A stretch of DNA of 64,000 nt from an uncultured Chitinophagales bacterium (GCA_964538485.1 CAZIHJ010000004.1:5836-69835), one strand, 5' to 3'; positions 1,543-19,504 are shown, counted from the first letter of the stretch. Notes: a model not told the origin generated them from the letters alone. Numbers and translations: made by a program.

Positions 1543-1667
1543 TGATAGACCTTTTTGGTTCGGAAACAGTGCGACACGCTAAAGGACCAAAGTTCAAATA
1601 ACAAACAACATTCAAGAACCAAATAGCAAACAGTTCAAGGCCCTTGTAAAGGGCGCCGGGGTTTATT

Positions 1668-2381: not shown

Positions 2382-2412
2382 TCCATATCGTTTTCCAACC
2401 CGAGGCCGACGA

Positions 2413-3387: not shown

Positions 3388-3460
3388 CGTTGATTCCCTT
3401 GCTACTCCGTACAGTGTTTATCAAATCTCAGCAGTCATCGGATTGCAGCCTCAACTATAT

Positions 3461-6433
3461 TCAACTGTTCTTCAGAACGTTCTGGAGTGTCGTGAGTAAC
3501 TTCTCTGATGTATACGGTTTTGAAATGTATTCTTTCACACAACCGGATATTCTCTTTGCAGTATTATGACTCCCTGTCATGCCGCTCGATGCGATGATCG
3601 TCACTGTGGGGTTCATCTTTTCCAGGGCACGTATTGTGGCCGAGCCATCCATGTAGGGCATCATCATGTCAGTGAGCACAACACTTATGTCATCGCCATG
3701 TTTCGCATACAGCGACAAAGCCTCAGTCCCGTCACTGGCGGTGATAGCCCGATAGCCATGTTCTTCAAGTGTTATCCTGGTCATCTCACGAATCGACGCT
3801 TCATCATCCACGATGAGAACGAGTTCCCCGTTCCCGTTGGATAGAATCCGCCTCTCCTCCTCATGTCGGTCTTCCAGTGCTTCGGCAGCTGGAAGGTAAA
3901 CGCGAAAGGCCGCACCCTTACCAATCTCACTCGACACCTCGACGAGTCCTCCATGTCCCTTCACGATGCCAGCCACAGTTGCAAGACCAAGGCCCGTCCC
4001 TTTACCAAATTCCTTTGTGGTAAAGAATGGTTCAAACACCCGTTCGATGACATCCGCCGGTATCCCTGATCCTGTGTCAGACACAATGATCGTTATGTAA
4101 CGACCGGGCTTCACATCCGGGCGCATTCGAGTGTAGTGTTCATCCAGAGTTGTATTTTCGCTCTTGATACTCAGGATACCTCCGTTTGGCATTGCATCAC
4201 GGGCGTTCACACAGAGGTTCAGGAGCACTTGATGAAGCTGTGTCGCATTAGCGACGACCTGCCAGAGCCCCCTGGAGATTCTTGTCTGCAATTGAATAGA
4301 CGGCGGAAATGTTCCCCGTACAATTTTCTCCACTTCTTTGATCAGGCGTCGTGGATCAAGAGTCGTCCGGCCACCCTCCGCACCGCGGGCAAATGTGAGC
4401 ACCTGATGAGCCATGTCTGCGCCACGTTTTGCGTTCGATTCAATCATCGTCAGCAAGTCATGCGTTCGATTATCCACCTGTTTCGAGAGGAGCGTCTCAA
4501 CCGCCAACATGATAGGAGTGAGCACGTTGTTAAGATCGTGGGCAACTCCGCCGGCCAAAGTTCCTATACTTTCGATCCGTTGGGCTCGCAGGAAGTTGAG
4601 TTCGAGTTGTTTTTTTTCTGTCACATCAGTGTTGATGGTGAGGATGGATCGCGGCTGTCCTTTCTCGTCACGGACAAGAGTCCACCTGCTCTGCACAATG
4701 ATGTCCCTTCCGTCCTTCGTCCTCTGTCGCAATTCGCCATTCCAATCACCCTTCGCCTTCAGAACCTTCATGGGCTCATTGATCTGTCCCCTTTCAGCCT
4801 CGTTGAAAAGCAGATCCGAGGTTTTTTTACCGATTACATGTCCGGCCTTCCATCCGTAGAGACGTTCAGCACCTTCATTCCAGAATAAAATGTTGTTCTC
4901 CATATCCCTGACGAGAATAGCATCGTGTGCTCTATTGAGCAATGTCGCCTGTTCCCTGATCTGGATCTCCGCTTGCTTGCGCTGAAGTTCCATTGCAGCA
5001 CGGGCGGCAAAAATACTCAAGATGGACTTTGCCCGTTCAACATTGGCGAGCGGCTTGTCATCAAGGATGCAGATGTGACCCAACGCGCGCCCTGAAGAAT
5101 CGAACAGGGGCACCCCCAAGTAGCACACGGCCCTCAATGCGACAAGGGCGGTCTCCTTGGGAAACATCTCTTGCACGTGGTCGCGGTAAAAGCACATCTT
5201 TCCTTCTTTTAGGACTGACTCGCATGTTGTCCCGACAACGTCATATTCAAAGTCCGGATCCCAATGATCACCAACCCACCAACCAAGTGAATGCACTCTG
5301 TCCGTGCTGTGGTTCATACATTCTGTCACAAGAGCATACCGGACGTTCAGTGCAGCTCCAAGATGCCGCGTGAGAGCCGGAAAAAATTCCTCTCCGGTAA
5401 CAGTCGCAGTACCTGCAACAAGACTATGCAACGCCTGCTCTTCCCGCTTCCGTTCCGTGATATCCGTAACGAATGCATACAGATATTTCGGCTGGCCGGA
5501 CGAATCTTTATACACATCGGTAAACAGTTCGACAGGAATGGTGCTTCCGTTCTTGCACCGGTATTCTTTTTCATATCGTACGGCCGGTCCGCCTGACAGT
5601 AGCTTCGCTACCTCGTGCGCATCAGACTCGTGCCAGCGTTCCGGCGTCAATTGTTGATATGTCAGCGCAAGCAGTTCTTCGCGTCTATAGCCAGTGAGCT
5701 TTTCGAAGGCGCTGTTGAAGCGGATCAGCTTCCCGTCGAGTTCCGTGACTGCGAGTGGCTGCGTTGTTTGTTCCACCATATCGTTGACGAAGCGAAGTTC
5801 ATCCGTTGTCCGTTCGAGAGCATCCACCGCGCGTTTACGCAAAAGCTCCATGGCAGCACGCGCTGCAAAGATGCCGAGAATTGACTTGGCCCGATCAGGA
5901 TCCGACAGCGGCTTGCCGTCTACTACATACAAATGACCCAGGGTTACCCCATCAGTGTCGAACAGCGGTGCGCCCAAATAACATGCAGCACCAAATGCCG
6001 GCAAGAACGTGTTCCCAAGGAAATGATCCTGAACATGATCCGGATAGAAACACATTCCTCCACTCTTCAGCACTTTCTCACAAGGAGTGTTCTCAGTAGC
6101 ATACTCAAGCCCACTATCCCATTGCCCGTCTTTCCATCTGGCCAGTTGGCGTACTTGCTCGAACTTCGCTCCCGTGCATTCTGTAACAACAGCCATGCGC
6201 ACCCCCAAAGCTACGGCAAGATGGCGCACGAGAGCGGGAAAAAATTCCTCACCGGTAACTGAGGCCGTCCCTGCAACGAGGTTCTGGAGGGCTTCGTCGA
6301 CACGGTGTAGTTCGCGTTGAGATGCTTCTTCTTCTGCCATGGAGTCTATCGTTTGGGACTGGGAGAGAATATCAACAGAGGCGTTTCTTGGTCCATCTCT
6401 CTTCTTCATAGATCCTCCGTATGAGGAACTCAC
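3461..6433 (-). CDS. Hybrid sensor histidine kinase/response regulator (GAF-PAS, GAF-PAS, HisKA, HATPase_c, REC)
   Basis: 990 aa. Two near-identical GAF blocks (GEEFFPAL(V/T)RHL...CYLG(A/V)PLFD...AKSIL(G/S)IFAARAAMEL). H-box HDLNNVLTPI. G-box DTGSGIP...GTGLGL. C-terminal receiver LVLIVDDEASIREM...D. All plus-strand ORFs in this span are antisense artefacts. Confidence 0.85.
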   Translation of the reverse strand: MSSSYGGSMKKRDGPRNASVDILSQSQTIDSMAEEEASQRELHRVDEALQNLVAGTASVTGEEFFPALVRHLAVALGVRMAVVTECTGAKFEQVRQLARWKDGQWDSGLEYATENTPCEKVLKSGGMCFYPDHVQDHFLGNTFLPAFGAACYLGAPLFDTDGVTLGHLYVVDGKPLSDPDRAKSILGIFAARAAMELLRKRAVDALERTTDELRFVNDMVEQTTQPLAVTELDGKLIRFNSAFEKLTGYRREELLALTYQQLTPERWHESDAHEVAKLLSGGPAVRYEKEYRCKNGSTIPVELFTDVYKDSSGQPKYLYAFVTDITERKREEQALHSLVAGTATVTGEEFFPALTRHLGAALNVRYALVTECMNHSTDRVHSLGWWVGDHWDPDFEYDVVGTTCESVLKEGKMCFYRDHVQEMFPKETALVALRAVCYLGVPLFDSSGRALGHICILDDKPLANVERAKSILSIFAARAAMELQRKQAEIQIREQATLLNRAHDAILVRDMENNILFWNEGAERLYGWKAGHVIGKKTSDLLFNEAERGQINEPMKVLKAKGDWNGELRQRTKDGRDIIVQSRWTLVRDEKGQPRSILTINTDVTEKKQLELNFLRAQRIESIGTLAGGVAHDLNNVLTPIMLAVETLLSKQVDNRTHDLLTMIESNAKRGADMAHQVLTFARGAEGGRTTLDPRRLIKEVEKIVRGTFPPSIQLQTRISRGLWQVVANATQLHQVLLNLCVNARDAMPNGGILSIKSENTTLDEHYTRMRPDVKPGRYITIIVSDTGSGIPADVIERVFEPFFTTKEFGKGTGLGLATVAGIVKGHGGLVEVSSEIGKGAAFRVYLPAAEALEDRHEEERRILSNGNGELVLIVDDEASIREMTRITLEEHGYRAITASDGTEALSLYAKHGDDISVVLTDMMMPYMDGSATIRALEKMNPTVTIIASSGMTGSHNTAKRISGCVKEYISKPYTSEKLLTTLQNVLKNS

Positions 6434-6662
6434 AGTCTGATGGTGAAAGGGTTGGGGATTGAATAGGACCGCATAGGAATTAGCTTACACAAATCCTACT
6501 TCCTTGTCAATATACTCAGGGACCCGAGGATTGATAGAAGACCGTTGTGTACGAGCTCTGTAGTCAGAGGATACAATTTGTTCTCCTTCCTCGTTCTTTT
6601 CCTCGTCAAAGTGCCATAGTGAATGGTTTCTTGCTAGATGGGGAGGACTGTTATCGAGCGCC

Positions 6663-8150
6663 CTACGCGGCAACGTTCCTTTGCCGTGAGGACATTGGCA
6701 GTTCAAACTTGAATCGAGTCCCTTTTCCAACCTGACTTTCGACAGTGATGGATTCGCCATGGACGTCGAGAATTTTCTTCACAATCGCCAGACCCAATCC
6801 TGCTCCGCCCGTCTTTCCGTTCGTTCGTGACTGATAGAATCTTTCAAATACAAAAGGCAGGTCGCTCGCCGGTATTCCAACACCTGTATCTTCAATGTAG
6901 ACCCTCACTCTGTCACCCTGGCGTTCCAGCACGATACGCACTTCTCCACCGGTATGCGTATGGACAACTGCGTTGTCAAGCAGATTTTGCAGCACGCGTT
7001 CGATGAGGCCAATGTCTGCCTCCACCATCGGCAAATTTTCCTGAAAACTGGACATGAGCTTCACTTGCTTTTTCTCAACAATGGGGGCAAACTTCTGAAT
7101 GAGGTCGTTTGCAAGTTCGGAAAGGGAAAATGGTTCGGCATGCAGTTGTGTTTGCCTCGCTTCGAGTTTAGAAAGCTCAAACAGGTCCTGCACAAGCCTG
7201 CTCAGTCGCTTGGTGCTGCTGAAGACAACCTCGAGGGAATTCCGGCGCTCTTCCGCGGTCAGGTTTGTGTCTTTCATGAGTACTGTTTCAAGGTAGCCCT
7301 GCATTGATGCAAGAGGAGTGCGCAGGTCATGGGAGACGTTGGCAATCAGCTCCCTGCGAAGCGTATCCGTGCGCTGCAGTTCTCCCACCTGTGTGGCAAG
7401 CGTCTCGGCCATAGAGTTGAATGCCCTGCCGAGATCATCCAGCTCGTCGTTTGACGTGATTGTCATCCGCTGAGAATAGTCCCCCTCTTTAAGGGCGAGA
7501 GCTGTGCGCGTTAACCGCCGCAACTTCTTCGTAACGAACCCAATCGCGACGAGGCCAATGACTCCTGCTGCAAAAAAACTAACGAGCACGCCTCGCACAG
7601 CCAAAGTCAGGATGTGGCTTTGTCGAATCCGATCGGCGACAGAGTCAAACTCCTCGCCGCGCAGAATGACGTAGACATATCCATCCGTCATTCCGTTCAA
7701 TAGTACCGGCGCTGCAGAGAAAACTTTGGGTGTGTGGATGTCGCGAGGATTATCTCCAAGGACGAGCTTCTTCCCATCCGAAGCCAGGAATTCATTGATT
7801 GGCTGAAGCGACACTGATGTGGCGGTCACTTTTTCCTTCGGAGCATCAAACGTGAGAATTGTTCCTTCCGCGTCAAGCAGGTACACCTCTACGCTCGGGT
7901 TGACGACCATGACATCATGAAACAACTTGGCCATTCCGTCAAGGTTCGGCTTTCCATCAACGAATGGGCGGATATCATCTACGATATGCCGGGCCAGAGA
8001 TGCGTTAATGCGCTGACTCGTCTCTGCAAAATACATCTCACTGGAAAACAGCGTCAGATAGGTGTATGCCCCCCCGACGAACAAGAGCAAAACCAGAAAA
8101 ACAGCAGACAGCTTCCAATACAAGCTTCGAAAGAACCCCCTGAACATCAC
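6663..8150 (-). CDS. Two-component sensor histidine kinase (TM, HAMP, HisKA, HATPase_c)
   Basis: 495 aa. N-terminal TM segment, second TM plus HAMP, H-box SHDLRTPLASMQGY, ATP-lid DTGVGIP..GLGLAI. A 4-nt overlap with the upstream response-regulator stop suggests an operon. Confidence 0.85.
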   Translation of the reverse strand: MMFRGFFRSLYWKLSAVFLVLLLFVGGAYTYLTLFSSEMYFAETSQRINASLARHIVDDIRPFVDGKPNLDGMAKLFHDVMVVNPSVEVYLLDAEGTILTFDAPKEKVTATSVSLQPINEFLASDGKKLVLGDNPRDIHTPKVFSAAPVLLNGMTDGYVYVILRGEEFDSVADRIRQSHILTLAVRGVLVSFFAAGVIGLVAIGFVTKKLRRLTRTALALKEGDYSQRMTITSNDELDDLGRAFNSMAETLATQVGELQRTDTLRRELIANVSHDLRTPLASMQGYLETVLMKDTNLTAEERRNSLEVVFSSTKRLSRLVQDLFELSKLEARQTQLHAEPFSLSELANDLIQKFAPIVEKKQVKLMSSFQENLPMVEADIGLIERVLQNLLDNAVVHTHTGGEVRIVLERQGDRVRVYIEDTGVGIPASDLPFVFERFYQSRTNGKTGGAGLGLAIVKKILDVHGESITVESQVGKGTRFKFELPMSSRQRNVAA

Positions 8151-8851
8151 TCCTCATCGGCAAATTTGTATCCCAGACCCCACACGGTGAGAATGTACTG
8201 GGGGTTTGCAGGATCTTGTTCAATCTTAGCTCGCAACCTGTTGATATGTGAGTTCACGGTGTGATCATAGCCATCGAACTTGTACCCCCACACAGTATCA
8301 AGAAGCCCCTGCCTTGAATAGGCCTTTCCAGGGTTCCTGGCAAACAAGGCAAGCAGATCAAATTCTTTTGCGGTCAGTTCAACCTTGCCACCTTTGCAAA
8401 GAACAGTGCGTTTCTCTAAATCAATTTTCAGATCTCGAAAGTGTATTTGCTTCTTCGCAATGCCCGAGACATCATCCTTTACTGCATCGACACGGCGAAA
8501 GATTGCTTTCACCCTCGCCAGTAGCTCCCGCACACTAAACGGCTTCGTGAGATAATCGTCCGCACCAAATTCCAGTCCGAGCACTTTGTCAAATTCCTCG
8601 GAACGCGATGTAAGCATGAGAATTGGAGTGTAATTCCTCTCCGATCGAAGCTCTTTGCAAATCTCAAGGCCGTCGATGCCTGGAAGCATAAGGTCAAGAA
8701 TGATGAGATCATAGTGATTCTTTAGTGCCTTCTGCAGCCCGGCCTCTCCATCATTGGCGACATCGCATTTGCATCCCAGATCAGTTATATGCATCTCGAC
8801 GAGTTTTGAAATGTCCCGGTCATCTTCAACAATGAGAACCTTTTGGTTCAT
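8147..8851 (-). CDS. OmpR-family response regulator (REC + winged-helix)
   Basis: Start chosen at MNQKVLIVEDDRDISK (ATG at 8849-8851). Receiver Asp pocket, and C-terminal trans_reg_C motif ...RLRAKIE...P..I.TVWGLGYKF. Confidence 0.85.
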   Translation of the reverse strand: MNQKVLIVEDDRDISKLVEMHITDLGCKCDVANDGEAGLQKALKNHYDLIILDLMLPGIDGLEICKELRSERNYTPILMLTSRSEEFDKVLGLEFGADDYLTKPFSVRELLARVKAIFRRVDAVKDDVSGIAKKQIHFRDLKIDLEKRTVLCKGGKVELTAKEFDLLALFARNPGKAYSRQGLLDTVWGYKFDGYDHTVNSHINRLRAKIEQDPANPQYILTVWGLGYKFADEE

Positions 8852-8964
8852 GGCTTGGAGGGTTCCTTTCGCCCTTGGGACGGTAACGGTTGGCTCTGAG
8901 AACATACGGAATCTCCTTGAGAATTTACACTGAAACAAAGTAACAGCCAAATATCACGAGATTA

Positions 8965-10038
8965 TCACGAAACCATGACAGTAGCATCCGCATCAATCAC
9001 TTCGGAGGATTGAGCACCCATTCTTCTCAGTGATCCCGGTTTATACACCCGCCACATCGAATCAGCGAAGTAGCGGCGCGAATCGAAGAGATGCTCGTAC
9101 ACTTCAAAGCCTGTCTCCCCTGCAAGTTGCTCGATCTCAGAAACGAGATATTTGTAGGAATATTCCGTGTGAATTGGCTCCCATGCCTCAAAATGAAACC
9201 ACCTCCCGATCTTTTCAACGAACACCGATTGCTTCTCGAGGCTCACGACATAACTCTCCATTCCACCGGAAAACACATCGTAGGTCCCGAAGTGGCGCCA
9301 TTTGCTCACATCGAAGTTTCCCCCGAGCTCCCGATTGATGCGATGAAGGAGGTTCAAATTAAAGTCCCGCGTTACTCCCTGAGAATCATTGTAAGCCCGG
9401 AGCAACATGTCGATGTCCTTCTTCAGATCAAAACCGATAAGAATCACATCATCATGATTGAGACAATTCCAGAGATTCCGCAAGAGGACGCAGTTTTCGG
9501 CATGCGTGAAATTCCCGATGGAAGAGCCCATAAAAAGAACGAGGTTCTTTCGTTTCGAACGATTGTTCAGCCATTTTAATCCGTTGAAATAGTCGGTGAC
9601 AAGTCCATTCGCCTGAAGAGCCGGGAACTGATTGTCGAGTGACGCTATGAGCGCTTGCATAGCACCCTCGGAGATATCAATAGGAACATATTGAAAGTCG
9701 AGCTTCTGCTCGATAAAGCAATTCAAGAGTGTTGTTGTTTTCCTGCTGAATCCAGCCCCAAGTTCCACGAGATTAAATGGCTGATCGTAATCGACGTAGT
9801 GCGCAATGGTAGAGCTGTTCCGTTGTATGATTTCCAGTTCGCAGCCGGTGGGATAGTATTCCGGCAATTCAGTGATCCTGGTGAAGAGCTCACTCCCCCG
9901 TTTGTCATAGAAATATTTGGAGGAGAGTTTTTTCTTCGGTGATGAAAGCCCTACCAGGACATCAAGGGCGAACGCATCTGTCTCGTTGAACGAGTCAGCG
10001 TAGTCGGTTTCGTGAAGAATCTTATACGTTGGTGGCAT
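8965..10038 (-). CDS. egtD: L-histidine N-alpha-methyltransferase (ergothioneine biosynthesis, EgtD)
   Basis: 357 aa. YFYDKRGSELFTRITELPEYYPTGCELEII matches the EgtD hallmark WFYDxxGSxLFxxIxxLPEYYPTRxExxIL, followed by the ELGAG SAM-binding motif. Confidence 0.8.
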   Translation of the reverse strand: MPPTYKILHETDYADSFNETDAFALDVLVGLSSPKKKLSSKYFYDKRGSELFTRITELPEYYPTGCELEIIQRNSSTIAHYVDYDQPFNLVELGAGFSRKTTTLLNCFIEQKLDFQYVPIDISEGAMQALIASLDNQFPALQANGLVTDYFNGLKWLNNRSKRKNLVLFMGSSIGNFTHAENCVLLRNLWNCLNHDDVILIGFDLKKDIDMLLRAYNDSQGVTRDFNLNLLHRINRELGGNFDVSKWRHFGTYDVFSGGMESYVVSLEKQSVFVEKIGRWFHFEAWEPIHTEYSYKYLVSEIEQLAGETGFEVYEHLFDSRRYFADSMWRVYKPGSLRRMGAQSSEVIDADATVMVS

Positions 10039-10050
10039 GGTTCCTCCGTT

Positions 10051-11370
10051 TCACATGGTGTCGGATGCAAGGCGAAATCCCGTGAACTGCCAGCGCTTAT
10101 CACACTGGAAGAAGTTGCGGTACGTTGGCCGGATGTGTGTCCGCGGAGTAGCGCACGATCCTCCACGCAGAGTCATCTGGTTGATCATGAACTTTCCATT
10201 ATATTCCCCGAGAGGTCCCTTCTCCTGCTGGTAGCCAGGGTATGGTAAGTAGGAACTGCCCGTCCATTCCCACACATCACCATACATTTGCGAAATTCCC
10301 GACGTATCAACTCCCGGGGCATGACCGAGAGGAACGGGATGAAAGTTCTGCATTTCGAGAAAGTTTCCGCACGAAGCCGATGTCTTTACTGATGCTGCAG
10401 CCTTCTCCCACTCAACCTCCGTTGGCAATCGTTTGTCCGCCCATCGGGCGTACGCCGATGCTTCGTAATAGCTCACATGACTCACCGGTTCATCCTTTTC
10501 TATTGAGCGAATGCCTGACATTGTAACGATCCGCCATTCTCCATCTTTCTTCTCCCAGTACAATGGAGCTTGCCATCCATCTTTCGTCACGATCTCCCAC
10601 CCGTCCGAAAGCCAGAGAAGGGGATTCTGATAACCGCCGTCATTCATGAACTCCAGGAAATCTCCGCAAGTCACCAGACGATCCATCAACCCGAAGTCAT
10701 TCACAAACGCTTTGTGCCGGGGCAACTCATTATCCCAGGCGAAGCCTTTGTTTCCTGCACCCATTTCAAAGATGCCTCCCTGAATACCAATGAATTTCAC
10801 AGGAGAGAGAAGAGGTTTGGTCATTTGGGGTCGGGTCTGCTTGTACACGGGACGAAGGGGATTCGATGCGAGTAAATGCTTGATATCGGTAACCAGAAGC
10901 TCTTGGTGCTGTTGCTCATGGTGGAGACCCAATTCAATCAGCGCAGAAACCTTTCGGTAATCATTTTCTCCGACAGATTGAATAAGCGAACGCGTTTGTT
11001 CGTTGATTGCAGTCCGGTAATCGTAGACGTCCTTAACGGTCGGCCGTGAGAGTGTTCCCCGAATGTCCCTGCTCCATCGCTCACCGAAGCTCTGATAGTA
11101 AGAGTTGAAAAGAACGTAGTAATGTTCGTTGTACGGTTGATAGGTTCGGGAGAACTGCTGCAGGATCACCCGTTCAAAGAACCAGGTGGTATGGGCGAGA
11201 TGCCATTTCGGTGGACTGACATCAGCCATGGACTGGATGACGTAGTCTTCCGTAACAAGCGGTTGACAAATTTCTTCTGTCACCCGCCGGACGCTGTCAA
11301 ATGCAGCCAGCAGATCGTGTCGTTCCATTGGAGCCCTCATGATTGGATGCTGATGAATTCGTGTCTGCAT
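10051..11370 (-). CDS. egtB: Ergothioneine biosynthesis sulfoxide synthase EgtB (DinB_2 + FGE-sulfatase domains)
   Basis: 439 aa. KWHLAHTTWFFE, HHEQQHQELL (DinB-like iron site), RLPTEVEWEKAA and LRGGSCATPRTHIRPTYRNF..FTGFRLA (FGE-sulfatase C-domain) align with Mycobacterium EgtB landmarks. Confidence 0.8.
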   Translation of the reverse strand: MQTRIHQHPIMRAPMERHDLLAAFDSVRRVTEEICQPLVTEDYVIQSMADVSPPKWHLAHTTWFFERVILQQFSRTYQPYNEHYYVLFNSYYQSFGERWSRDIRGTLSRPTVKDVYDYRTAINEQTRSLIQSVGENDYRKVSALIELGLHHEQQHQELLVTDIKHLLASNPLRPVYKQTRPQMTKPLLSPVKFIGIQGGIFEMGAGNKGFAWDNELPRHKAFVNDFGLMDRLVTCGDFLEFMNDGGYQNPLLWLSDGWEIVTKDGWQAPLYWEKKDGEWRIVTMSGIRSIEKDEPVSHVSYYEASAYARWADKRLPTEVEWEKAAASVKTSASCGNFLEMQNFHPVPLGHAPGVDTSGISQMYGDVWEWTGSSYLPYPGYQQEKGPLGEYNGKFMINQMTLRGGSCATPRTHIRPTYRNFFQCDKRWQFTGFRLASDTM

Positions 11371-11546
11371 GAATGTGCTGAAGAAGTATCACGAAAGTGT
11401 CAACGCCAGGTAAACCTGTGGTGATAATTCGATGAGCATCGACATAGATCTTTTATCCCGGATGGACCGTTTCGTGACCATCGGCAGGCATATTGTATTC
11501 CATCAACAATGAACGATCACTACCACCAGTTAGCAAGGAGGCGGGA

Positions 11547-11756
11547 ATGCGAGTACATGAGGTATTGTTTGATGATTTTTTTGCAAGAAGAATCCCCGAT
11601 GAAGGATTCACGCTTGAGGAAGTCTATGAGGAATACTTTGGATTGATCCACGAGAGGCAGGAGAATCGCCCTGAATTGCATGGGCACGTTGTAACAATGG
11701 ATGGAAACGTTGTTGTCCCGGAATTGCGACCGTCAGTCGCACCGTTCGCAGCATAA
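11547..11756 (+). CDS. Small acidic hypothetical protein (69 aa)
   Basis: ATG MRVHEVLFDDFF... preceded by a strong RBS AAGGAGG with 6-nt spacing. Sub-ORF of listed ORF 11493..11756. No recognised domain. Confidence 0.35.
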   Translation: MRVHEVLFDDFFARRIPDEGFTLEEVYEEYFGLIHERQENRPELHGHVVTMDGNVVVPELRPSVAPFAA

Positions 11757-11778
11757 CTTATCATCATTGGAGGTACCT

Positions 11779-11931
11779 ATGGACGCGTTTGACTATGATA
11801 CCATCGCCCCTGTCATTAACGATTACATCGGTGACGAACTCACATTCGAAGACTTGAAAAAGGGCTTCTCGGCATTCCTCGAAGACGAACGATCAGAGTC
11901 CATTGCATTGGTTGCGGTCGAAACCAGATGA
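11779..11931 (+). CDS. Small acidic hypothetical protein (50 aa), translationally coupled to the MIP channel gene
   Basis: MDAFDYDTIAPVINDYIGDELTFEDLKKGFSAFLEDERSESIALVAVETR. RBS GGAGGT 5 nt upstream. Its TGA overlaps the ATG of the next gene (ATGA at 11928-11931). Confidence 0.4.
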   Translation: MDAFDYDTIAPVINDYIGDELTFEDLKKGFSAFLEDERSESIALVAVETR

Positions 11932-12713
11932 ATGACGCTTTGCGAAAACACTGGCCCGAATATCTCATGGAAGCGGCAGAGCTCGGGATCTTCATGATCT
12001 CCGCAGCAACGGTCGGCGTCTTGTTGGGGCATCCGAATTCGATCATTCATCAATCACTGCCCGACCCATTCGTACGGCGTGTTCTGGGAGGATGTGCCAT
12101 GGGCATCACAGCGATCTGTCTTATCTACTCACCGTGGGGAAAACAGTCGGGTGCACATATGAATCCAGCTCTGACTCTGACATTTCTCCGACTCGGCAAA
12201 ATCAAACGGTTGGATGCTCTCTTCTATATTTTCGCCCAGTTTGCGGGTGGAGTTACAGGAGTCGTCGTTGCAAAGACATTTCTTGGAGCCAGTTTGGGTC
12301 ATCCGTCGGTGAACTATGTCGCTACACTGCCCGGACCATGGGGAAGTGGGGCCGCATTCGCTGGAGAGTTTGTCATTGCCTTTCTAATGATGTCAATGGT
12401 CCTCTGGGCATCCCACTCGGCAACTCTTTCACCCTACACAGGTCTATTTGCGGGCCTTCTCGTGGCGTTGTACATCACACTTGAAGATCCGCTCTCCGGT
12501 ATGAGCATGAACCCCGCGCGAACATTTGGTTCGGCTATCTCAGCAATGCGATGGGATGCGCTGTGGATTTACTTCACAGCCCCTCCTCTTGCGATGCTTT
12601 TGGCAGGGGAAATGTACATCAGGCGAAAGGGACAACTGGCGGTTGCTTGTGCCAAGTTCCATCATGAGAATGACAAGCGTTGCATCCATTGCGGCGCAAA
12701 CATGAACACGTGA
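11928..12713 (+). CDS. MIP family channel (aquaporin/aquaglyceroporin-like) with a Cys/His-rich C-terminal tail
   Basis: 261 aa. Two NPA boxes (SGAHMNPALT and GMSMNPART), six predicted TM segments. Tail CAKFHHENDKRCIHCGANMNT. Confidence 0.8.
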   Translation: MNDALRKHWPEYLMEAAELGIFMISAATVGVLLGHPNSIIHQSLPDPFVRRVLGGCAMGITAICLIYSPWGKQSGAHMNPALTLTFLRLGKIKRLDALFYIFAQFAGGVTGVVVAKTFLGASLGHPSVNYVATLPGPWGSGAAFAGEFVIAFLMMSMVLWASHSATLSPYTGLFAGLLVALYITLEDPLSGMSMNPARTFGSAISAMRWDALWIYFTAPPLAMLLAGEMYIRRKGQLAVACAKFHHENDKRCIHCGANMNT

Positions 12714-12755
12714 TTTGGAATCCAGTCCTTCAACCAACCATCAACGAGGTCTATC

Positions 12756-13607
12756 ATGAAACATGTGCTTTCTGCACTCTTACTATCGCTTATCTTTTCC
12801 AGCTTGAGCCATGCCCAGGTTATATCCAAGAAGACTCTGACGCTCGAGGGGGCCAAACGGGTCATTGGAGCAGCCGTGGAAGAAGCAAAGAGACTCAACG
12901 CACCCGGTGGGGCGATTGCGGTCGTAGATGATGGCGGCAATCTTATCGCGGTCGAACGTCTCGATGGCACATTTGCCGCGGGAGCTCTCATCTCGATCGG
13001 TAAGGCCCGCACATCCGCTCTCTTCAAAAGACCGACCAGTTTCTTCGAGGATGTCATCAAGAAGGGTCGGACGCCCATGGTCGCGTTGAATGATTTTACT
13101 CCACTGCAGGGCGGCGTTCCGATCGAAGTTGATGGACAAGTCGTCGGTGCAGTCGGCGTGAGCGGCGCATCAAGCGCTCAACAGGATGAAGAGCTTGCGC
13201 TTGCCGGAGTGAAGGCACTGCAAGGGGGAACGGGAGGCAACATGGACGTGAAGTATTTCAAGGGTAACTCTGTCGCCGAGGCATTTAAGAAAGGGATGCC
13301 CCTCGTTGAAAACGGTCAGTATAAAGTCCATGCGAGTCACCGTGATGGTCCCGGTATGGCCGAGGTGCATACGAGGGATACTGATATCATTTATGTGCAG
13401 GAAGGAAATGCGACCCTCGTCATCGGCGGGACAGTTGTGGATGGAAAGCAAATCGAAACAAATGAAATTCGTGGGGTGTCAATCGTGAATGGTGAGACCA
13501 GGGCCCTTGCGAAAGGCGATGTCGTCGTGGTGCCGAACGGGATTCCGCACTGGTTTAAAGAGGTGCGCGGACCGCTCAATTACTATGTCGTAAAGGTAAC
13601 CGAATAG
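12756..13607 (+). CDS. Exported GlcG/HbpS-like (DUF336) domain fused to a C-terminal cupin domain
   Basis: Signal peptide MKHVLSALLLSLIFSSLSHAQ. GlcG-like segment GGAIAVVDDGGNLIAVERLDG...VGAVGVSGASSAQQDEELA. C-terminal cupin-like beta-barrel ...IYVQEGNATLVIGG...GDVVVVPNGIPHWF. Confidence 0.7.
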   Translation: MKHVLSALLLSLIFSSLSHAQVISKKTLTLEGAKRVIGAAVEEAKRLNAPGGAIAVVDDGGNLIAVERLDGTFAAGALISIGKARTSALFKRPTSFFEDVIKKGRTPMVALNDFTPLQGGVPIEVDGQVVGAVGVSGASSAQQDEELALAGVKALQGGTGGNMDVKYFKGNSVAEAFKKGMPLVENGQYKVHASHRDGPGMAEVHTRDTDIIYVQEGNATLVIGGTVVDGKQIETNEIRGVSIVNGETRALAKGDVVVVPNGIPHWFKEVRGPLNYYVVKVTE

Positions 13608-13648
13608 AAGAAAACGACCAGAATCCACACTACATCAAGGAGAACGTC

Positions 13649-15340
13649 ATGAAATTGAAATACACATTACTACTGCCAATCCTTTCGGTTATTTGCATGG
13701 GTTCCTCAGCCCGTGTAAACGCCGAACTTCCTGCGGGTGCGGCTGCTGCAACGGTTGATCTCGCAACTGACGCGGGTGTTGCACTCGTGAAAGGTCAATG
13801 GAGATACAGTGAAACGAAGATCATCGAAACAGACTTTTGGGAGCCCGGACCGGATGGTCAACCGGGAACCACGCCGACGAAAACATACGACTACGCTCCG
13901 CACGCTGGTGGAGTGAACTTTGATGATTCACAATGGGAAATAGTACCTCCGACCTCACTCTCAAAGCGCAGAGGCAACGGCCGGCTCTTCTTCAACTGGT
14001 ATCGCATCGCGATCACCGTGCCGGAGAAGATCGATGATATGTCCGCGTCCGGTTCAACTGTAGTGTTCTCTACCTCGCTTGATGACTATGCCGAAATTTG
14101 GGTGGATGGGGAATTGAGCCGTTCCCTTGGACAGTCAGGTGGTTCCATCGTTGCGGGGTGGAATGCAGAGAATAAGCTTGTAATCGGTCGCAACGTAAGG
14201 CCCGGACAGGTGATTCAGCTTGCGGTCTTCGGCATCAATGGTCCGATCTCCAACCCCCCTGCGAATTACATTTACCTGCGATATGCAACGCTTGAGTTTC
14301 ATCCCGGCTCGTACGCTCCTGTTGCCCTGACTCCAACCGAAGTGAATGTTGAGGTGGATCGGCATGATCCCGCCATCAATGCAATCGTTTCACTCAATCC
14401 AAAGATATTCAAGTTGGCGGATGGGTTTCGGTTTACTGAGGGACCAATCTGGGTAAGAGACGGCAAGTATCTTCTCTTCAGCGATCCGAACAGTAACATC
14501 ATCTGGAAATACACAAGCGATGGCAAACTCTCCGTTTTCCGGGAGAAGAGTGGCTACGCAGGAGCGGATATTGGTGAATACGGTCAGCCCGGCTCCAACG
14601 GCATGACCGTGGATCCGCAGGGAAGACTGACAATCGACCAGCATGGGAACCATCAAATCATCCGGATTGAGAATGATGGCAACGAGACAGTCCTTGCGGA
14701 CAAGTATCAGGGCAAGCGACTCAATAGTCCAAACGACCTCGTTTATCGCTCCGATGGAACACTGTTCTTCACCGATCCTCCGTTCGGATTGCCGAAGGTC
14801 TTCGATGACCCGCGCAAAGAGTTGAGCTTCAGCGGGGTTTACTCGATCTACAAAAGAAAGCTCCAACTGCTGACAAGAGAATTCACCGGCCCGAATGGTA
14901 TTGCCCTTTCTCCTGACGAAAAGTATCTCTATGTCGGCAATTGGGATGAGAAGGCAAAAGTAGTAAAGCGATACGAAGTGAACGCGGACGGTACGGTGAA
15001 AAATGGGACGCTCTTCTACGATTTCACCAGCGCGCCCGGTGAAGATGCGATAGACGGTGTAAAAGTCGATCAACTCGGCAATGTCTACGTGTCGGGTCCG
15101 GGTGGGTTGTGGATAATCTCCGCACAGGGCAAGCATCTGGGGACAATCAAAGCGCCCAAGCATATCCACAATATGGCTTGGGGAGATGATGATGGAAAGA
15201 CATTGTACCTATGCGCACGTGGATCATTGTACCGGATGAGGCTGAGCGTCGCCGGAGCCGGATTAAACATTGGAGCCCCCGCATTGGGAAGCAACCAGGG
15301 AACTCACCAAACCGACCACGGGGAGATCTACAATAAATGA
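13649..15340 (+). CDS. Exported two-domain protein: N-terminal jelly-roll-like domain + SMP-30/gluconolactonase/LRE-like beta-propeller
   Basis: 563 aa with signal peptide. The C-terminal half (FRFTEGPIWVRDGKYLLFSDPNSNIIWKY...GKRLNSPNDLVYRSDGTLFFTDPPFGLP) is a paralog of 17177..18202. The antisense 259-aa ORF 14390..15169 is rejected. Confidence 0.75.
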   Translation: MKLKYTLLLPILSVICMGSSARVNAELPAGAAAATVDLATDAGVALVKGQWRYSETKIIETDFWEPGPDGQPGTTPTKTYDYAPHAGGVNFDDSQWEIVPPTSLSKRRGNGRLFFNWYRIAITVPEKIDDMSASGSTVVFSTSLDDYAEIWVDGELSRSLGQSGGSIVAGWNAENKLVIGRNVRPGQVIQLAVFGINGPISNPPANYIYLRYATLEFHPGSYAPVALTPTEVNVEVDRHDPAINAIVSLNPKIFKLADGFRFTEGPIWVRDGKYLLFSDPNSNIIWKYTSDGKLSVFREKSGYAGADIGEYGQPGSNGMTVDPQGRLTIDQHGNHQIIRIENDGNETVLADKYQGKRLNSPNDLVYRSDGTLFFTDPPFGLPKVFDDPRKELSFSGVYSIYKRKLQLLTREFTGPNGIALSPDEKYLYVGNWDEKAKVVKRYEVNADGTVKNGTLFYDFTSAPGEDAIDGVKVDQLGNVYVSGPGGLWIISAQGKHLGTIKAPKHIHNMAWGDDDGKTLYLCARGSLYRMRLSVAGAGLNIGAPALGSNQGTHQTDHGEIYNK

Positions 15341-16284
15341 AAGAGAATCTTATGAAGTGGCTCTACGCTCTCCCTTTCTTTCTCACAAGCTGCGTTGGGA
15401 CGGAATATATCGATGACCCGGTTTCACCCGAACAGGTTGCGTCGCGGGTAGTGATTTCTCCTTTGAATGCGGCGGTTCAGGTTGGATTCAGTTTGCAGTT
15501 GCATGCTGCGCTGGTAAATTCTGTTGGAGACAGCTCCTTACCTCAGGAAGTGCAATGGTCCAGCTCGAACACGACGGTGGCTACAGTCAATCCCGGCGGT
15601 CTTCTTGTTGGGTTGCAGCCGGGGCAAGTACGGATTTCAGCCCGGCATATTGATCTGGTGAGTTCGCCCGCGCTCGTCACGGTCGTTGCAGATCCAAATC
15701 AGGTTGCCCGGGTTGTCGTGTCGCCTCATGCTGTACAACGGAACATCGGTGGAATGCAGCAGTTCACCGCAACTGCATACAATTTGAGCGGCGATGTGCT
15801 GGCGGGAAGAATTCCGGCGTGGGCCAGTTCCAACACGTCAGCTGTCTCAATCAATTCGAACGGGCTTGCGACGGCTCTCACTGAGGGTGCAGCATCAATC
15901 AGTGCAGTCATTGACGGAATCGAAAGCGGGCCCTCTCTGTTTACCGTTGTCGATAATGTCGTAAGCCGGACGGGAACATTTGTCATGCGACCGGGTAGCG
16001 GTCACAACGTGCAGGGAACAGCAACTCTCAGCCGTCGAACAAACGGCAGCCTGGTTCTTGCGTTTGGATCAGACTTTGCCAGCGCAGGTGGGCCGGATGT
16101 CGAAGTATATCTTTCAACTACAAACTCCGTCGGGGCAAACAGCATCAGTGTAGGTAACCTCCAGAGGTTCTCGGGTGCCCAAAGCTACAATGTGCCTTCC
16201 GGAGTCCAGTTGAACAGTTATGATTGGGTCATCATTCACTGCGTGCCATTTAATATCACGTTCGGCTATGCACGCCTGCAGTAA
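15337..16284 (+). CDS. Lipoprotein with bacterial Ig-like (Big_2) repeats and a C-terminal DM13 domain
   Basis: Lipobox FFLTSC. Two Big_2-like repeats (...VQWSSSNTTVATVNPGGLLVGLQPGQVRISA... and ...PAWASSNTSAVSINSNGLATALTEGAASISA...). The C-terminal ~100 aa (GSGHNVQGTATLSRRTNGSLVLAFGSDFASAGGPDVEVYLS...) has the same architecture as the two repeats in 21994..22851. The ATGA overlap with the upstream gene suggests translational coupling. Confidence 0.65.
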   Translation: MKENLMKWLYALPFFLTSCVGTEYIDDPVSPEQVASRVVISPLNAAVQVGFSLQLHAALVNSVGDSSLPQEVQWSSSNTTVATVNPGGLLVGLQPGQVRISARHIDLVSSPALVTVVADPNQVARVVVSPHAVQRNIGGMQQFTATAYNLSGDVLAGRIPAWASSNTSAVSINSNGLATALTEGAASISAVIDGIESGPSLFTVVDNVVSRTGTFVMRPGSGHNVQGTATLSRRTNGSLVLAFGSDFASAGGPDVEVYLSTTNSVGANSISVGNLQRFSGAQSYNVPSGVQLNSYDWVIIHCVPFNITFGYARLQ

Positions 16285-16303
16285 AACTCAAATAGGGGCA
16301 CTC

Positions 16304-17164
16304 ATGTTCACAACCTTACTTCTCCGGACGGGCCTCATCGTCCTGCTCATCTCAGTTGCAACCGAGTCACTCACGGCCGGAGGCTGGACACTGCAAGAGG
16401 GGCGAGGATTCTACAAGCTTGGCTTTCAACTGATCAACGCCAGGGAATTCTACGAACCGAGTGGGAACAAGACTTCGATTACACCGCTTGGAGACTACAC
16501 GGTGAGTGTCTATGCGGAATATGGAGTAACGGATTGGGTTACGGGAACCGCCTACGTTCCGTTCTACAAGCGAAATACTCTGGACCGGGTGGTGGGTCGA
16601 CAGAGCGGCGTGACGTATTTTGAAGGCGACCAGACATCACACTTTGCCGATGTAACCTTGGGTGCGCGTATTGGCATTATTCGGCAGTCGCCCACAGTGC
16701 TGGCTCTCAGTGTGCAACTCGGGTTGCCATTGGGCAACTCGACGCAGCCCAACGGACTCCTCTCCGGCGATGGCGAGTTCAATCAACTCGTGTCAGTGGA
16801 GATTGGCCATTCACTCCATCCCCTGCCGATGTTTGCAACTGTTAATGCAGGTTTCAATAATCGGACACGCGGTTTCTCTGACGAGTTCAGCTACGGCGCA
16901 CAGGTTGGGTACACCTTTGAGCATCTGGTGACGCTCATTGCGCACTGTCACGGGGTGGAATCGCTGAACAATGGCTCAACAGATGTGACAGGAGGCGTGA
17001 GTGGTCTTTACGCGAACAACCAGAGGTTCCTGGGGTTTGGTCTGGAGTGCATGTACAAGCTCACAGAGGCCTATGGTATATCTCTCAGTGCCGCCACCGC
17101 AACTAGAGGAAGGAATGTCCTTTCAGCAATAAAGTATTCGATCGGCTTCTCTTTAAAAATATAG
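16304..17164 (+). CDS. Outer-membrane beta-barrel protein; paralog of 688..1542
   Basis: Start at MFTTLLLRTGLIVLLISVATESLTAGGW (ATG at 16304, after the upstream TAA at 16282-16284). Shares LLSGDGEFN and the overall strand pattern with the 688..1542 product. Confidence 0.6.
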   Translation: MFTTLLLRTGLIVLLISVATESLTAGGWTLQEGRGFYKLGFQLINAREFYEPSGNKTSITPLGDYTVSVYAEYGVTDWVTGTAYVPFYKRNTLDRVVGRQSGVTYFEGDQTSHFADVTLGARIGIIRQSPTVLALSVQLGLPLGNSTQPNGLLSGDGEFNQLVSVEIGHSLHPLPMFATVNAGFNNRTRGFSDEFSYGAQVGYTFEHLVTLIAHCHGVESLNNGSTDVTGGVSGLYANNQRFLGFGLECMYKLTEAYGISLSAATATRGRNVLSAIKYSIGFSLKI

Positions 17165-17176
17165 AGGAGAATCCTC

Positions 17177-18202: not shown

Positions 18203-18386
18203 GGATGTTACAAGAAACGGTGACGGGAAATGAGGCCAGCCGACGTTGCACACTTCGGCAGGCTTTTGGGCAGTTCAAAACATTCCACACCTTTGTGATG
18301 GTTCTGCAATCGTTACCGACTATCTTTGGTCAGCAGCGGACATCATTAGTCTATTAATCAACCACATGACAGGATGAACAAAACGC

Positions 18387-18968: not shown

Positions 18969-18986
18969 CAGTAAGAGGAACACCAT

Positions 18987-19490: not shown

Positions 19491-19504
19491 CTTACGACGG
19501 CAGG

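What the first reader, a model, noticed from the sequence alone, without database searches (positions are those of the whole stretch)
8965..11370. Stand-alone egtB-egtD ergothioneine operon without egtA/egtC in a T9SS-bearing (FCB-group-like) genome
Both hallmark enzymes are clearly recognisable (EgtD: YFYDKRGSELFTRITELPEYYP; EgtB: DinB_2 + FGE-sulfatase domains), 13 nt apart on the same strand. No gamma-glutamylcysteine ligase (EgtA) or amidohydrolase (EgtC) lies within tens of kb. From established knowledge, two-gene clusters use a type II EgtB that takes cysteine directly (Chloracidobacterium thermophilum paradigm). The cluster sits about 7 kb from exported MsrA/MsrB and a redox-protein island, suggesting a coordinated antioxidant locus. 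Ergothioneine production is sparsely documented in this part of the bacterial tree.
Basis: partly seen in the sequence, partly recalled or inferred. Interest (0 to 1): 0.5.

Follow-up and report, generated by a model that had tools for sequence, protein, structure and literature searches.

The report
Two-gene ergothioneine operon with linked regulator
The window carries an ordinary two-gene set for making the antioxidant ergothioneine (a cysteine-using EgtB plus the histidine methyltransferase EgtD); the only new point is that a neighbouring sensor-regulator pair and a shared DNA motif suggest it is switched on together with nearby oxidative-damage repair genes.

Summary
egtB (10051..11328, minus strand; the open frame runs to 11370) and egtD (8965..10038) lie 12 nt apart. 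Both score above NCBI's curated equivalog cut-offs.

EgtB is type II. It is 55% identical to the solved Chloracidobacterium thermophilum enzyme (E 1e-142, against 1e-37 for the mycobacterial type I enzyme). It carries every defined residue of the published EgtB-II signature, including the Tyr-Tyr pair that type I lacks. EgtD keeps the histidine-binding residues.

No egtA, egtC or egtE-like gene lies in the 64 kb. The rest of the genome could not be checked.

This is the commonest EgtB subfamily (16,304 NCBI sequences). egtD sat beside egtB in 64 of 80 unrelated genomes, several of them in the FCB group. The core finding is therefore routine.

One addition is new. In about nine related uncultured Bacteroidota-like contigs, egtBD is followed by an OmpR-type response regulator and a histidine kinase. 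A direct repeat, [G/T]TGAY-N6-GTGAY (11-bp period), lies 44-70 nt (about 190 nt in one locus) upstream of egtB, the regulator, msrA and ndh2, and nowhere else in those loci.

The parts
10051..11328 (-). egtB, type II (cysteine-dependent) hercynine sulfoxide synthase, 425 aa. The ORF extends to 11370, but Met15 at 11328 is the likely start.
   Evidence: TIGR03440 558 bits against a cut-off of 360. DinB_2 plus FGE-sulfatase domains. 54.9% identity to CthEgtB, with the full EgtB-II composite motif. P0001 is 100% identical and 425 aa long.
8965..10038 (-). egtD, L-histidine N-alpha-methyltransferase (makes hercynine), 357 aa.
   Evidence: TIGR03438 306.8 bits against a cut-off of 290.9. Methyltransf_33 at E 5e-99. 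34.8% identity to M. smegmatis EgtD, with Y39, F47, Y56, N166, Y206, T213, E282 and S284 conserved.
10039..10050 (-). 12-nt egtB-egtD spacer with a GGAGG ribosome-binding site, implying the two genes are transcribed and translated as a unit.
   Evidence: Sequence read directly.
11388..11403 (-). Direct-repeat motif TTGACACTTTCGTGAT, 59 nt upstream of the egtB ATG. Predicted binding site of the response regulator.
   Evidence: Exact pattern match. Highest PWM score in the window, 33.3. Present at the same position in all 9 related lineages.
8953..8968 (-). Direct-repeat motif GTGATAATCTCGTGAT. It overlaps the egtD stop codon and ends 47 nt upstream of the regulator's ATG. Predicted autoregulatory site.
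   Evidence: The same motif precedes the regulator gene in L081, L086, L088, L089 and L092, and in degenerate form in L090.
8147..8905 (-). OmpR/PhoB-family response regulator, 252 aa. Start is the ATG at 8905, preceded by AAGGAG.
   Evidence: Response_reg plus Trans_reg_C domains. No NCBIfam equivalog is passed; the best partial matches are YycF and MtrA. Orthologues of 76-85% identity lie next to egtD in L081, L086 and L087; in L088 the orthologue is separated from egtD by an inverted PAS-kinase gene.
6663..8150 (-). Membrane histidine kinase (HAMP-HisKA-HATPase). It overlaps the regulator gene by 4 nt.
   Evidence: Orthologues of 48-66% identity in relatives.
19569..19584 (+). Same motif (TTGATACTCCCGTGAC), 69 nt upstream of the ndh2 ATG at 19654.
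   Evidence: An identical site lies at the equivalent place in L084.
23014..23029 (+). Near-consensus motif (ATGACCATTTCGTGAC), 53 nt upstream of the GMC-oxidoreductase ATG at 23083.
   Evidence: PWM score 21.7. Sequence and start codon read.
11463..11478 (+). Weaker copy (TGGACCGTTTCGTGAC) that faces the divergent operon of small ORFs, MIP channel and HbpS-like gene.
   Evidence: PWM score 13.3. Lies in a block conserved in relatives.
18387..19490 (+). msrA and msrB (methionine sulfoxide reductases with N-terminal hydrophobic segments), neighbours in the conserved redox island.
   Evidence: TIGR00401 204 bits and TIGR00357 212 bits. msrA carries the motif upstream in L084, L085 and L089, but not in the window.
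11547..13607 (+). Divergently transcribed conserved genes: 69-aa and 50-aa orphan ORFs, a MIP channel (11928..12713) and an exported HbpS-like/cupin protein (12756..13607).
   Evidence: Pfam matches. Synteny in L081, L084, L086, L088, L089, L090 and L092.

Best explanation
The two genes form a minimal aerobic ergothioneine pathway of the type II kind.

1. EgtD trimethylates L-histidine with three S-adenosylmethionine molecules to give hercynine.
2. The type II non-haem-iron sulfoxide synthase EgtB uses O2 to join free L-cysteine (not gamma-glutamylcysteine) to C2 of the imidazole ring. The product is hercynylcysteine sulfoxide.
3. A PLP-dependent C-S lyase encoded elsewhere in the genome releases ergothioneine. 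Because cysteine is used directly, EgtA and EgtC are not needed.

What is shown: family membership and active-site signatures. What is inferred: substrate use, the final product and the identity of the lyase.

A second, weaker layer concerns regulation. In this uncultured Bacteroidota-like lineage the pair is probably the first part of an egtB-egtD-regulator-kinase unit. The OmpR/PhoB-type regulator is predicted to bind an 11-bp-period direct repeat, [G/T]TGAY-N6-GTGAY. Through it, the regulator would control egtBD, its own gene, ndh2, a GMC oxidoreductase and, in relatives, msrAB. That would make ergothioneine synthesis one output of a redox-stress two-component regulon. This layer is inference from comparative genomics. 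I put it at about 0.5; the confidence given below is for the enzyme assignment.
For: Enzymes:
- EgtB passes TIGR03440 (558 against 360) and EgtD passes TIGR03438 (307 against 291).
- The best solved relatives are C. thermophilum EgtB entries 6qki, 6o6l and 8qf6 at E 1e-142. The type I M. thermoresistibile entry 4x8b scores 1e-37 and aligns only to the C-terminal part.
- The window protein has S38, H43, H46, Y77, Y78, R87, R90, H137, Q140, H141, Y376, N405, F406 and F407. These are identical to CthEgtB S54, H59, H62, Y93, Y94, R103, R106, H153, Q156, H157, Y385, N414, F415 and F416. Together they form the published EgtB-II motif xSHHYYRRHQHxYNFFx (PMC11030361).
- The same residues are invariant in 23 relatives.
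- The histidine-binding residues of EgtD are conserved (their roles come from PMC8593015).
- Type II enzymes use cysteine, and two-gene egtBD sets in Methylobacterium make ergothioneine (PMC11993508).
- No egtA, egtC or egtE is in the window.
- egtD is adjacent to egtB in 64 of 80 diverse genomes.

Regulon:
- No terminator-like site was found between egtD and the regulator gene, and the regulator and kinase genes overlap.
- The egtBD-regulator-kinase order is conserved in L081, L086, L087, L089, L090, L091 and L092.
- The motif occurs 5 times in the window against 1.33 expected.
- PWM hits of 14 or more fall only before the regulator gene, egtB, ndh2 and the GMC gene.
- In relatives, all 16 exact hits lie upstream of egtB, the regulator gene, msrA or ndh2. 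This includes four loci fetched after the pattern was fixed: 7 hits there, none elsewhere in 58 kb.
- Background is 0.11 hits per 10 kb in 1.3 Mb of unrelated egtB loci.
- In L088 the motif stays with the regulator gene although that gene is separated from egtD.
- L082 and L083, which lack the regulator nearby, lack the motif.
Against: - No biochemistry. Cysteine use and ergothioneine as the end product are inferred by homology (55% identity to the characterised enzyme).
- No C-S lyase gene is nearby, and the rest of the genome is unseen, so the last step is unassigned.
- EgtD clears its equivalog cut-off by only 16 bits. Thr163 is Ser and Met252 is Ser.
- For the regulon, the motif was defined after the fact from two site types. 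Shared ancestry inflates its conservation upstream of egtB.
- In the window itself, msrA has no site.
- Nothing shows that this particular regulator binds the motif.
- One exact match in the window lies inside a gene (46003..46018). Another lies before an unrelated glycosidase gene (29697..29712).
Confidence: 0.85

Rival explanations
1. The pair works as a classical type I (mycobacterial) pathway. EgtB would take gamma-glutamylcysteine, and egtA and egtC would be encoded elsewhere in the genome.
For: The rest of the genome was not available. The genome-contig scan did not return this genome. Exact-protein look-ups found no contig.
Against: The type I signature xSDH--RRHQHYYNWDR is not met. The window has His where type I has Asp, the Tyr-Tyr insertion where type I has a gap, and Phe-Phe where type I has Trp-Asp. 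The E-value to the type I structure is 100 orders of magnitude weaker than to type II. None of the 12 related loci with gene tables shows a Glu-Cys ligase or an amidotransferase nearby.
Confidence: 0.03
2. The sulfoxide-synthase homologue makes a different thio- or seleno-histidine, either selenoneine (SenA-like) or ovothiol (OvoA-like), rather than ergothioneine.
For: SenA is the second-best NCBIfam hit at 351 bits, and OvsA and SenA structures appear among the PDB hits.
Against: SenA scores 351 against a cut-off of 420, and OvoA 133 against 400. The SenA motif xNEH--HRH... and the OvoA motif are not met. No selenosugar genes (senB or senC types) and no OvoA methyltransferase domain are in the window. 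The adjacent EgtD supplies hercynine, the EgtB substrate.
Confidence: 0.02
3. The enzymes are as annotated, but the neighbouring two-component system is unrelated. On this view the shared motif is bound by another factor encoded elsewhere, or is a lineage-specific promoter element. The egt, msr and ndh2 clustering would be inherited gene order without co-regulation.
For: Synteny is limited to one lineage. MsrAB lies near egtB in only 1 of 80 distant genomes. The regulator and kinase pass no specific equivalog. The window's msrA lacks a site. The motif was defined after the fact. The first half-site before egtB reads TTGACA, like a sigma-70 -35 box.
Against: The motif is a direct repeat with an 11-bp period, the usual geometry for OmpR/PhoB-family regulators (general knowledge). 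It sits in front of the regulator's own gene in six lineages and follows that gene when it is relocated in L088. It is absent where the regulator is absent, in L082 and L083. It recurs before non-homologous genes at a similar distance of 44-70 nt in all but one case (L085 msrA, about 190 nt) and always in the gene's orientation.
Confidence: 0.4
4. The pathway stops early. Hercynine or hercynylcysteine sulfoxide would be the end product, for example as a compatible solute, because no dedicated C-S lyase exists.
For: No class-V aminotransferase or EgtE-like gene is in the window or in the gene tables of relatives.
Against: Two-gene egtBD organisms such as Methylobacterium do accumulate ergothioneine. 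Yeast given only a fungal methyltransferase/sulfoxide-synthase gene (A. fumigatus egtA), with no Egt2 or EgtE, still produced some ergothioneine, which the review attributes to an inherent host activity or an abiotic reaction (PMC11993508). Keeping an O2-dependent sulfoxide synthase only to make an intermediate is unlikely.
Confidence: 0.05

Closest known systems
Type II EgtB / EgtD two-gene ergothioneine pathway (Chloracidobacterium thermophilum EgtB, PDB 6QKI/6O6L; Methylobacterium egtBD)
   Same: The two-domain DinB_2 plus FGE-sulfatase enzyme, the three-His iron site, the Tyr93/Tyr94 pair, Arg103/Arg106, the C-terminal Y..NFF residues, an adjacent egtD, and the absence of egtA and egtC. 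Identity to CthEgtB is 55% end to end.
   Different: The host is a different phylum, an uncultured FCB-group or Bacteroidota-like MAG. Tyr replaces Phe at Cth position 375, and this Tyr is nearly invariant in this subgroup. EgtD has a C-terminal tail of about 35 aa beyond the mycobacterial enzyme. Substrate use is untested here.
Mycobacterial egtABCDE cluster (type I EgtB, M. thermoresistibile 4X8B)
   Same: The same overall chemistry (hercynine plus a thiol plus O2 gives a sulfoxide), the same fold and iron ligands, and the same EgtD family.
   Different: Type I uses gamma-glutamylcysteine, needs EgtA and EgtC, and has its catalytic Tyr377 in the C-terminal domain. The window protein fails the type I motif, and egtA, egtC and egtE are absent from the window.
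OmpR/PhoB-family two-component regulons with 11-bp-period direct-repeat boxes (PhoB Pho box, WalR TGTWAH-N5-TGTWAH; from general knowledge)
   Same: A receiver plus winged-helix regulator, a HAMP/HisKA kinase with an overlapping gene, a tandem hexamer-like repeat with 11-bp spacing placed just upstream of target genes, and a site in front of the regulator's own gene.
   Different: The half-site sequence (TTTC)GTGAYAC is different. No curated regulator or kinase equivalog is passed. The signal is unknown. The targets (egtBD, msrAB, ndh2) are not those of any described system I could find.
HbpS-SenS-SenR redox three-component system of Streptomyces (PMC4991794)
   Same: An exported HbpS-like (DUF336) protein is encoded near a kinase and regulator pair and near oxidative-stress genes.
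   Different: Similarity to HbpS is weak (E 1.5e-8; EfgA and GlcG-like proteins score better). Here the domain is fused to a cupin. The gene lies on the opposite strand. This is a lead only, and no membership is claimed.

Membership tests
EgtB, type II (EgtB-II subfamily of non-haem-iron sulfoxide synthases) | N-terminal DinB_2 domain plus C-terminal FGE-sulfatase domain, scoring above the TIGR03440 trusted cut-off | tested here: met
   PF12867 and PF03781. TIGR03440 558.3 bits against 360.
EgtB, type II (EgtB-II subfamily of non-haem-iron sulfoxide synthases) | Three-His iron site (Cth H62, H153, H157) | tested here: met
   H46, H137 and H141 in the 425-aa numbering. Invariant in 23 relatives.
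EgtB, type II (EgtB-II subfamily of non-haem-iron sulfoxide synthases) | Composite motif xSHHYYRRHQHxYNFFx, including the catalytic Tyr-Tyr pair on the lid loop that type I lacks | tested here: met
   S38, H43, H46, Y77, Y78, R87, R90, H137, Q140, H141, Y376, N405, F406 and F407. Motif definition from PMC11030361. The placement of the two 'x' and Y positions near residue 376 rests on my own alignment.
EgtB, type II (EgtB-II subfamily of non-haem-iron sulfoxide synthases) | Uses free L-cysteine rather than gamma-glutamylcysteine as sulfur donor | not testable with these tools
   Needs an enzyme assay. Inferred from 55% identity to CthEgtB and from the motif.
EgtB, type I (mycobacterial) | Composite motif xSDH--RRHQHYYNWDR | tested here: not met
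   His replaces Asp, the YY insertion is present, and Phe-Phe replaces Trp-Asp.
EgtB, type I (mycobacterial) | Co-encoded egtA (Glu-Cys ligase) and egtC (amidohydrolase) | tested here: not met
   No such Pfam family in any sizeable ORF of the 64 kb. The whole genome was not available.
EgtD (histidine N-alpha-methyltransferase) | Methyltransf_33 fold, scoring above the TIGR03438 cut-off | tested here: met
   PF10017 at E 5e-99. TIGR03438 306.8 bits against 290.9, a margin of only 16 bits.
EgtD (histidine N-alpha-methyltransferase) | Histidine-binding residues Tyr39, Phe47, Tyr56, Asn166, Tyr206, Thr213, Glu282 and Ser284 (M. smegmatis/M. tuberculosis numbering) | tested here: met
   All eight are conserved. 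Thr163 is Ser and Met252 is Ser. Residue roles from PMC8593015.
SenA (selenoneine synthase) | NF041186 above its cut-off, the motif xNEH--HRHxHYYN(F/Y)(F/Y)R, and neighbouring senB/senC | tested here: not met
   351.4 bits against 420. Motif mismatch. No such neighbours.
OvoA (ovothiol synthase) | TIGR04344 above its cut-off and a C-terminal methyltransferase domain | tested here: not met
   132.7 bits against 400. Only two domains present.
OmpR/PhoB-type two-component regulon (proposed control of egtBD) | Receiver plus Trans_reg_C regulator with a cognate HisKA kinase in one operon | tested here: met
   The two genes overlap by 4 nt.
OmpR/PhoB-type two-component regulon (proposed control of egtBD) | Tandem direct-repeat site upstream of target genes and of the regulator's own gene, conserved across relatives | tested here: met
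   All 16 exact hits in relatives lie before egtB, the regulator gene, msrA or ndh2.
OmpR/PhoB-type two-component regulon (proposed control of egtBD) | The regulator physically binds the site and changes transcription | not testable with these tools
   Needs EMSA or footprinting, or reporter assays.

The most novel reading that the evidence does not exclude
In one uncultured Bacteroidota-like lineage, ergothioneine synthesis is a direct transcriptional output of a dedicated, autoregulated two-component system. The regulator is at 8147..8905 and the kinase at 6663..8150. The system acts through the box [G/T]TGAY-N6-GTGAY. Its regulon would join egtBD with methionine sulfoxide reductases, NDH-2, a GMC oxidoreductase and possibly a MIP channel and HbpS-like operon. 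In sister genomes an EgtUV-like importer sits beside egtBD, though no box was found upstream of it. This would be the first signal-transduction pathway shown to control bacterial ergothioneine biosynthesis genes outside the WhiB3/PknD control known in mycobacteria.
Probability: 0.45. Interest if true: 0.5.

Novelty: new member of a known kind. Interest (0 to 1): 0.3.

Why it matters
The gene pair adds nothing new to ergothioneine enzymology. Type II EgtB plus EgtD is the most abundant form in sequence databases, and standard pipelines annotate it automatically.

Two modest points remain.

- It is further genomic evidence that FCB-group bacteria, for which measurements of ergothioneine are nearly absent, have the aerobic pathway.
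- The linked regulator, kinase and recurring upstream box give a concrete, cheaply testable hypothesis for how a non-actinobacterial organism switches ergothioneine synthesis on together with periplasmic methionine-sulfoxide repair and respiration genes. Regulation of ergothioneine synthesis is known mainly from Mycobacterium tuberculosis (WhiB3, PknD; PMC5790434).

Tried and rejected
- Exact-protein look-ups for the window's EgtB, as the 439-aa ORF and as the 425-aa P0001, found no contig. The source genome could therefore not be inspected for egtA, egtC or egtE.
That was useful for the distribution and for egtD adjacency, but not for the host genome.
- Cluster look-ups gave no organism names. 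Taxonomy rests on Ppk1 hits and a T9SS sorting domain.
- No riboswitch or other Rfam family was found in 6000..20000.
- The sigma-70 promoter and terminator scans were at background level and uninformative.
- The 9-mer GTCACGAAA alone is not enriched in the window: 23 matches against 19.8 expected. Only the two-half-site pattern is enriched.
- The HbpS-SenS-SenR analogy was considered. Similarity to HbpS is weak and generic DUF336 proteins score better, so it is kept only as a lead.
- SenA, OvoA and type I EgtB assignments were rejected on scores and motifs.
- The Naowarojna 2019 CthEgtB structure paper was not held by the library. Residue definitions were taken from PMC11030361 and PMC10696552 instead.
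- No structure prediction was run. It was unnecessary at 55% identity to a solved structure.
Full report
**1. Is it there?**

Yes. Two minus-strand ORFs occupy 10051..11370 (439 aa) and 8965..10038 (357 aa). The stop codon of the first and the ATG of the second are separated by 12 nt (aacGGAGGaacc), not 13.

The identical database protein is 425 aa long (P0001, 100% identity, one NCBI contig of 79,020 bp). Relatives share a conserved GAGG-N5-ATGGAACGA start. The real egtB start is therefore most likely Met15, at 11328.

EgtB scores 558.3 bits on TIGR03440 (cut-off 360). EgtD scores 306.8 bits on TIGR03438 (cut-off 290.9). Pfam gives DinB_2 plus FGE-sulfatase for EgtB and Methyltransf_33 for EgtD.

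**2. Which EgtB?**

The solved C. thermophilum enzyme (6QKI, 6O6L, 8QF6) matches end to end at E 1e-142. The type I M. thermoresistibile enzyme (4X8B) matches only the C-terminal part, at 1e-37.

A published classification reduces these enzymes to 17 positions (PMC11030361):

| Subfamily | Composite motif | NCBI sequences |
|---|---|---|
| EgtB-II | xSHHYYRRHQHxYNFFx | 16,304 |
| EgtB-I | xSDH--RRHQHYYNWDR | 12,211 |
| SenA | xNEH--HRHxHYYN(F/Y)(F/Y)R | 1,514 |

I aligned the window protein to CthEgtB (54.9% identity). It has S38, H43, H46, Y77, Y78, R87, R90, H137, Q140, H141, Y376, N405, F406 and F407. These match Cth S54, H59, H62, Y93, Y94, R103, R106, H153, Q156, H157, Y385, N414, F415 and F416. 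All are invariant in 23 relatives of 59-88% identity.

The Tyr-Tyr pair is the catalytic feature of the Cth enzyme. It sits on the lid loop that closes the small cysteine pocket (PMC10696552). The type I, SenA and OvoA signatures are not met, and their HMM scores fall below cut-off (SenA 351 against 420; OvoA 133 against 400).

Type II enzymes use cysteine directly, and Methylobacterium egtBD sets make ergothioneine without EgtC (PMC11993508). Cysteine use here is an inference from homology, not a measurement.

**3. EgtD.**

It is 34.8% identical to M. smegmatis EgtD. Tyr39, Phe47, Tyr56, Asn166, Tyr206, Thr213, Glu282 and Ser284 are conserved. Thr163 is Ser and Met252 is Ser. The roles of these residues in histidine binding are described in PMC8593015.

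**4. What is missing.**

I scanned every sizeable ORF of the window against Pfam. None is a Glu-Cys ligase, a class-II amidotransferase or a class-V aminotransferase.

The last step must be done by a lyase encoded elsewhere. The rest of the genome could not be reached.

**5. How unusual is it?**

Not very. EgtB-II is the largest subfamily. The literature already notes that most EgtB homologues are co-encoded with or fused to EgtD (PMC8433421).

In 80 genomes from many phyla that carry an EgtB of 47-56% identity, egtD lay next to egtB in 64. The list includes Hymenobacter, Roseivirga, Saprospiraceae, Cyclobacteriaceae, Balneolaceae, Rhodothermales, Ignavibacteriales and Kapaibacterium. The FCB group is therefore well represented genomically.

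Experimental reports for this part of the tree are indeed sparse. Salinibacter ruber is the one listed in PMC11993508.

The window's host is an uncultured FCB-group bacterium. Its Ppk1 best named hits are 'Bacteroidota bacterium' MAGs (67%, 59%) and Ignavibacteriae (53-56%). A 1476-aa protein carries a T9SS type A sorting domain above cut-off.

**6. Surroundings.**

- Downstream on the same strand lie an OmpR/PhoB-type response regulator (8147..8905; ATG preceded by AAGGAG, 59 nt after egtD), a HAMP histidine kinase that overlaps it by 4 nt (6663..8150), and a PAS hybrid kinase.
- No terminator-like site separates egtD from the regulator gene.
- Divergently transcribed from egtB are two small orphan ORFs, a MIP channel, an exported HbpS-like/cupin protein, SGL and DM13 proteins, msrA, msrB, ndh2 and a GMC oxidoreductase.
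- This arrangement recurs in related contigs with EgtB identity of 71-87%: L081, L084, L086/L087, L088, L089, L090/L091 and L092.
- It does not recur in L082 and L083, nor in the 80 distant genomes.

**7. A shared upstream box.**

Aligning the egtB upstream regions of relatives showed a conserved GTTGACACTTTCGTGATAC. The egtD-regulator spacer holds TTTCGTGATAATCTCGTGATA. Both are direct repeats with an 11-bp period: [G/T]TGAY-N6-GTGAY.

In the window:
- The pattern occurs 5 times against 1.33 expected. One of 100 shuffles reached 5.
- A weight matrix built from the sites scores 14 or more at only four places: before the regulator gene, before egtB, before ndh2 (19569..19584) and before the GMC oxidoreductase (23014..29; its real start is 23083).
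- All four lie within 8-24 kb, and none lies in the other 40 kb.
- A weaker copy faces the divergent operon (11463..11478).

In relatives:
- Every exact match lies upstream of egtB, the regulator gene, msrA or ndh2, in the gene's orientation, 44-70 nt (about 190 nt before msrA in L085) from the start codon.
- Four loci fetched after the pattern was fixed gave 7 hits, all at the predicted places, and none elsewhere in 58 kb.
- Background in 1.3 Mb of unrelated egtB loci is 0.11 per 10 kb, against 1.5 per 10 kb in the syntenic relatives.
- In L088 the regulator is separated from egtD by an inverted gene, and the box stays with the regulator.
- L082 and L083 lack both the regulator and the box.

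Tandem sites with an 11-bp period, including one in front of the regulator's own gene, are the usual pattern for OmpR/PhoB-family regulators (general knowledge). I therefore think it more likely than not that this two-component system controls egtBD together with ndh2, the GMC oxidoreductase and, in relatives, msrAB.

Caveats:
- The pattern was derived after the fact.
- Conservation upstream of egtB partly reflects shared ancestry.
- The window's own msrA has no site.
- Binding is untested.
- The signal sensed by the kinase is unknown.

A literature search found no two-component control of egt genes. Known regulation is by WhiB3 and PknD in M. tuberculosis.

**8. Verdict.**

The core is a routine new member of a very common, well-characterised kind.

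This amounts to a predicted regulon of moderate interest. Overall interest is 0.3.

Noticed in passing
window 2413..3387 (-), with 1668..2381 (+): An arsenosugar-biosynthesis radical-SAM protein ArsS passes its equivalog cut-off (TIGR04167 424.8 against 300). It sits next to a nitroreductase-family gene. No arsM was seen nearby.
   Followed up: no
L083 4555..6872; L085 5460..7777; L089 7418..9882; L090 7571..9878: In several close relatives an ABC ATPase and a fused permease/OpuAC-type binding protein lie immediately upstream of egtB, on the same strand. This is the architecture of the EgtUV ergothioneine importer. These genomes may therefore both import and make ergothioneine. The window lacks this pair.
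   Followed up: partly
window 11547..11756 (+) and 11779..11931 (+): Two small acidic ORFs (69 and 50 aa) match no Pfam or NCBIfam family. They are conserved (52-74% identity) ahead of the MIP channel gene in all syntenic relatives.
   Followed up: partly
window 12756..13607 (+): An exported protein fuses an HbpS-like (DUF336) domain to a cupin. It is conserved next to the MIP channel. Similarity to the Streptomyces redox sensor HbpS is weak (E 1.5e-8), and the formaldehyde sensor EfgA scores better.
   Followed up: partly
window 58519..62949 (-): A 1476-aa SBBP beta-propeller-repeat protein with a C-terminal T9SS type A sorting domain (TIGR04183 26.1 against 23). It supports an FCB-group host.
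   Followed up: partly
window 38000..44000: G+C rises to 0.56-0.58, against about 0.51 elsewhere. The stretch holds an S9 peptidase, a 605-aa protein with no family match and an ABC ATPase. It may be acquired DNA.
   Followed up: no
window 13649..18202 and 21085..22851: A run of genes for apparently exported proteins: SGL/gluconolactonase-like (two copies), Big_2-DM13, a double-DM13 'electron transfer' protein and a spondin-domain protein. They are interleaved with msrAB and ndh2. Their function is unclear, and the block is conserved in relatives.
   Followed up: no
window 29697..29712 (+) and 46003..46018 (-): Two further exact matches to the direct-repeat pattern lie outside the redox island. 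One is before a GH63-like glycosidase gene and one is inside a DUF2911 gene. Both score below 14 on the weight matrix, so they are probably chance matches.
   Followed up: partly
window 46619..50812 (-): An agmatine deiminase and N-carbamoylputrescine amidase pair (putrescine synthesis) lies next to ppk1. Ordinary housekeeping genes.
   Followed up: no
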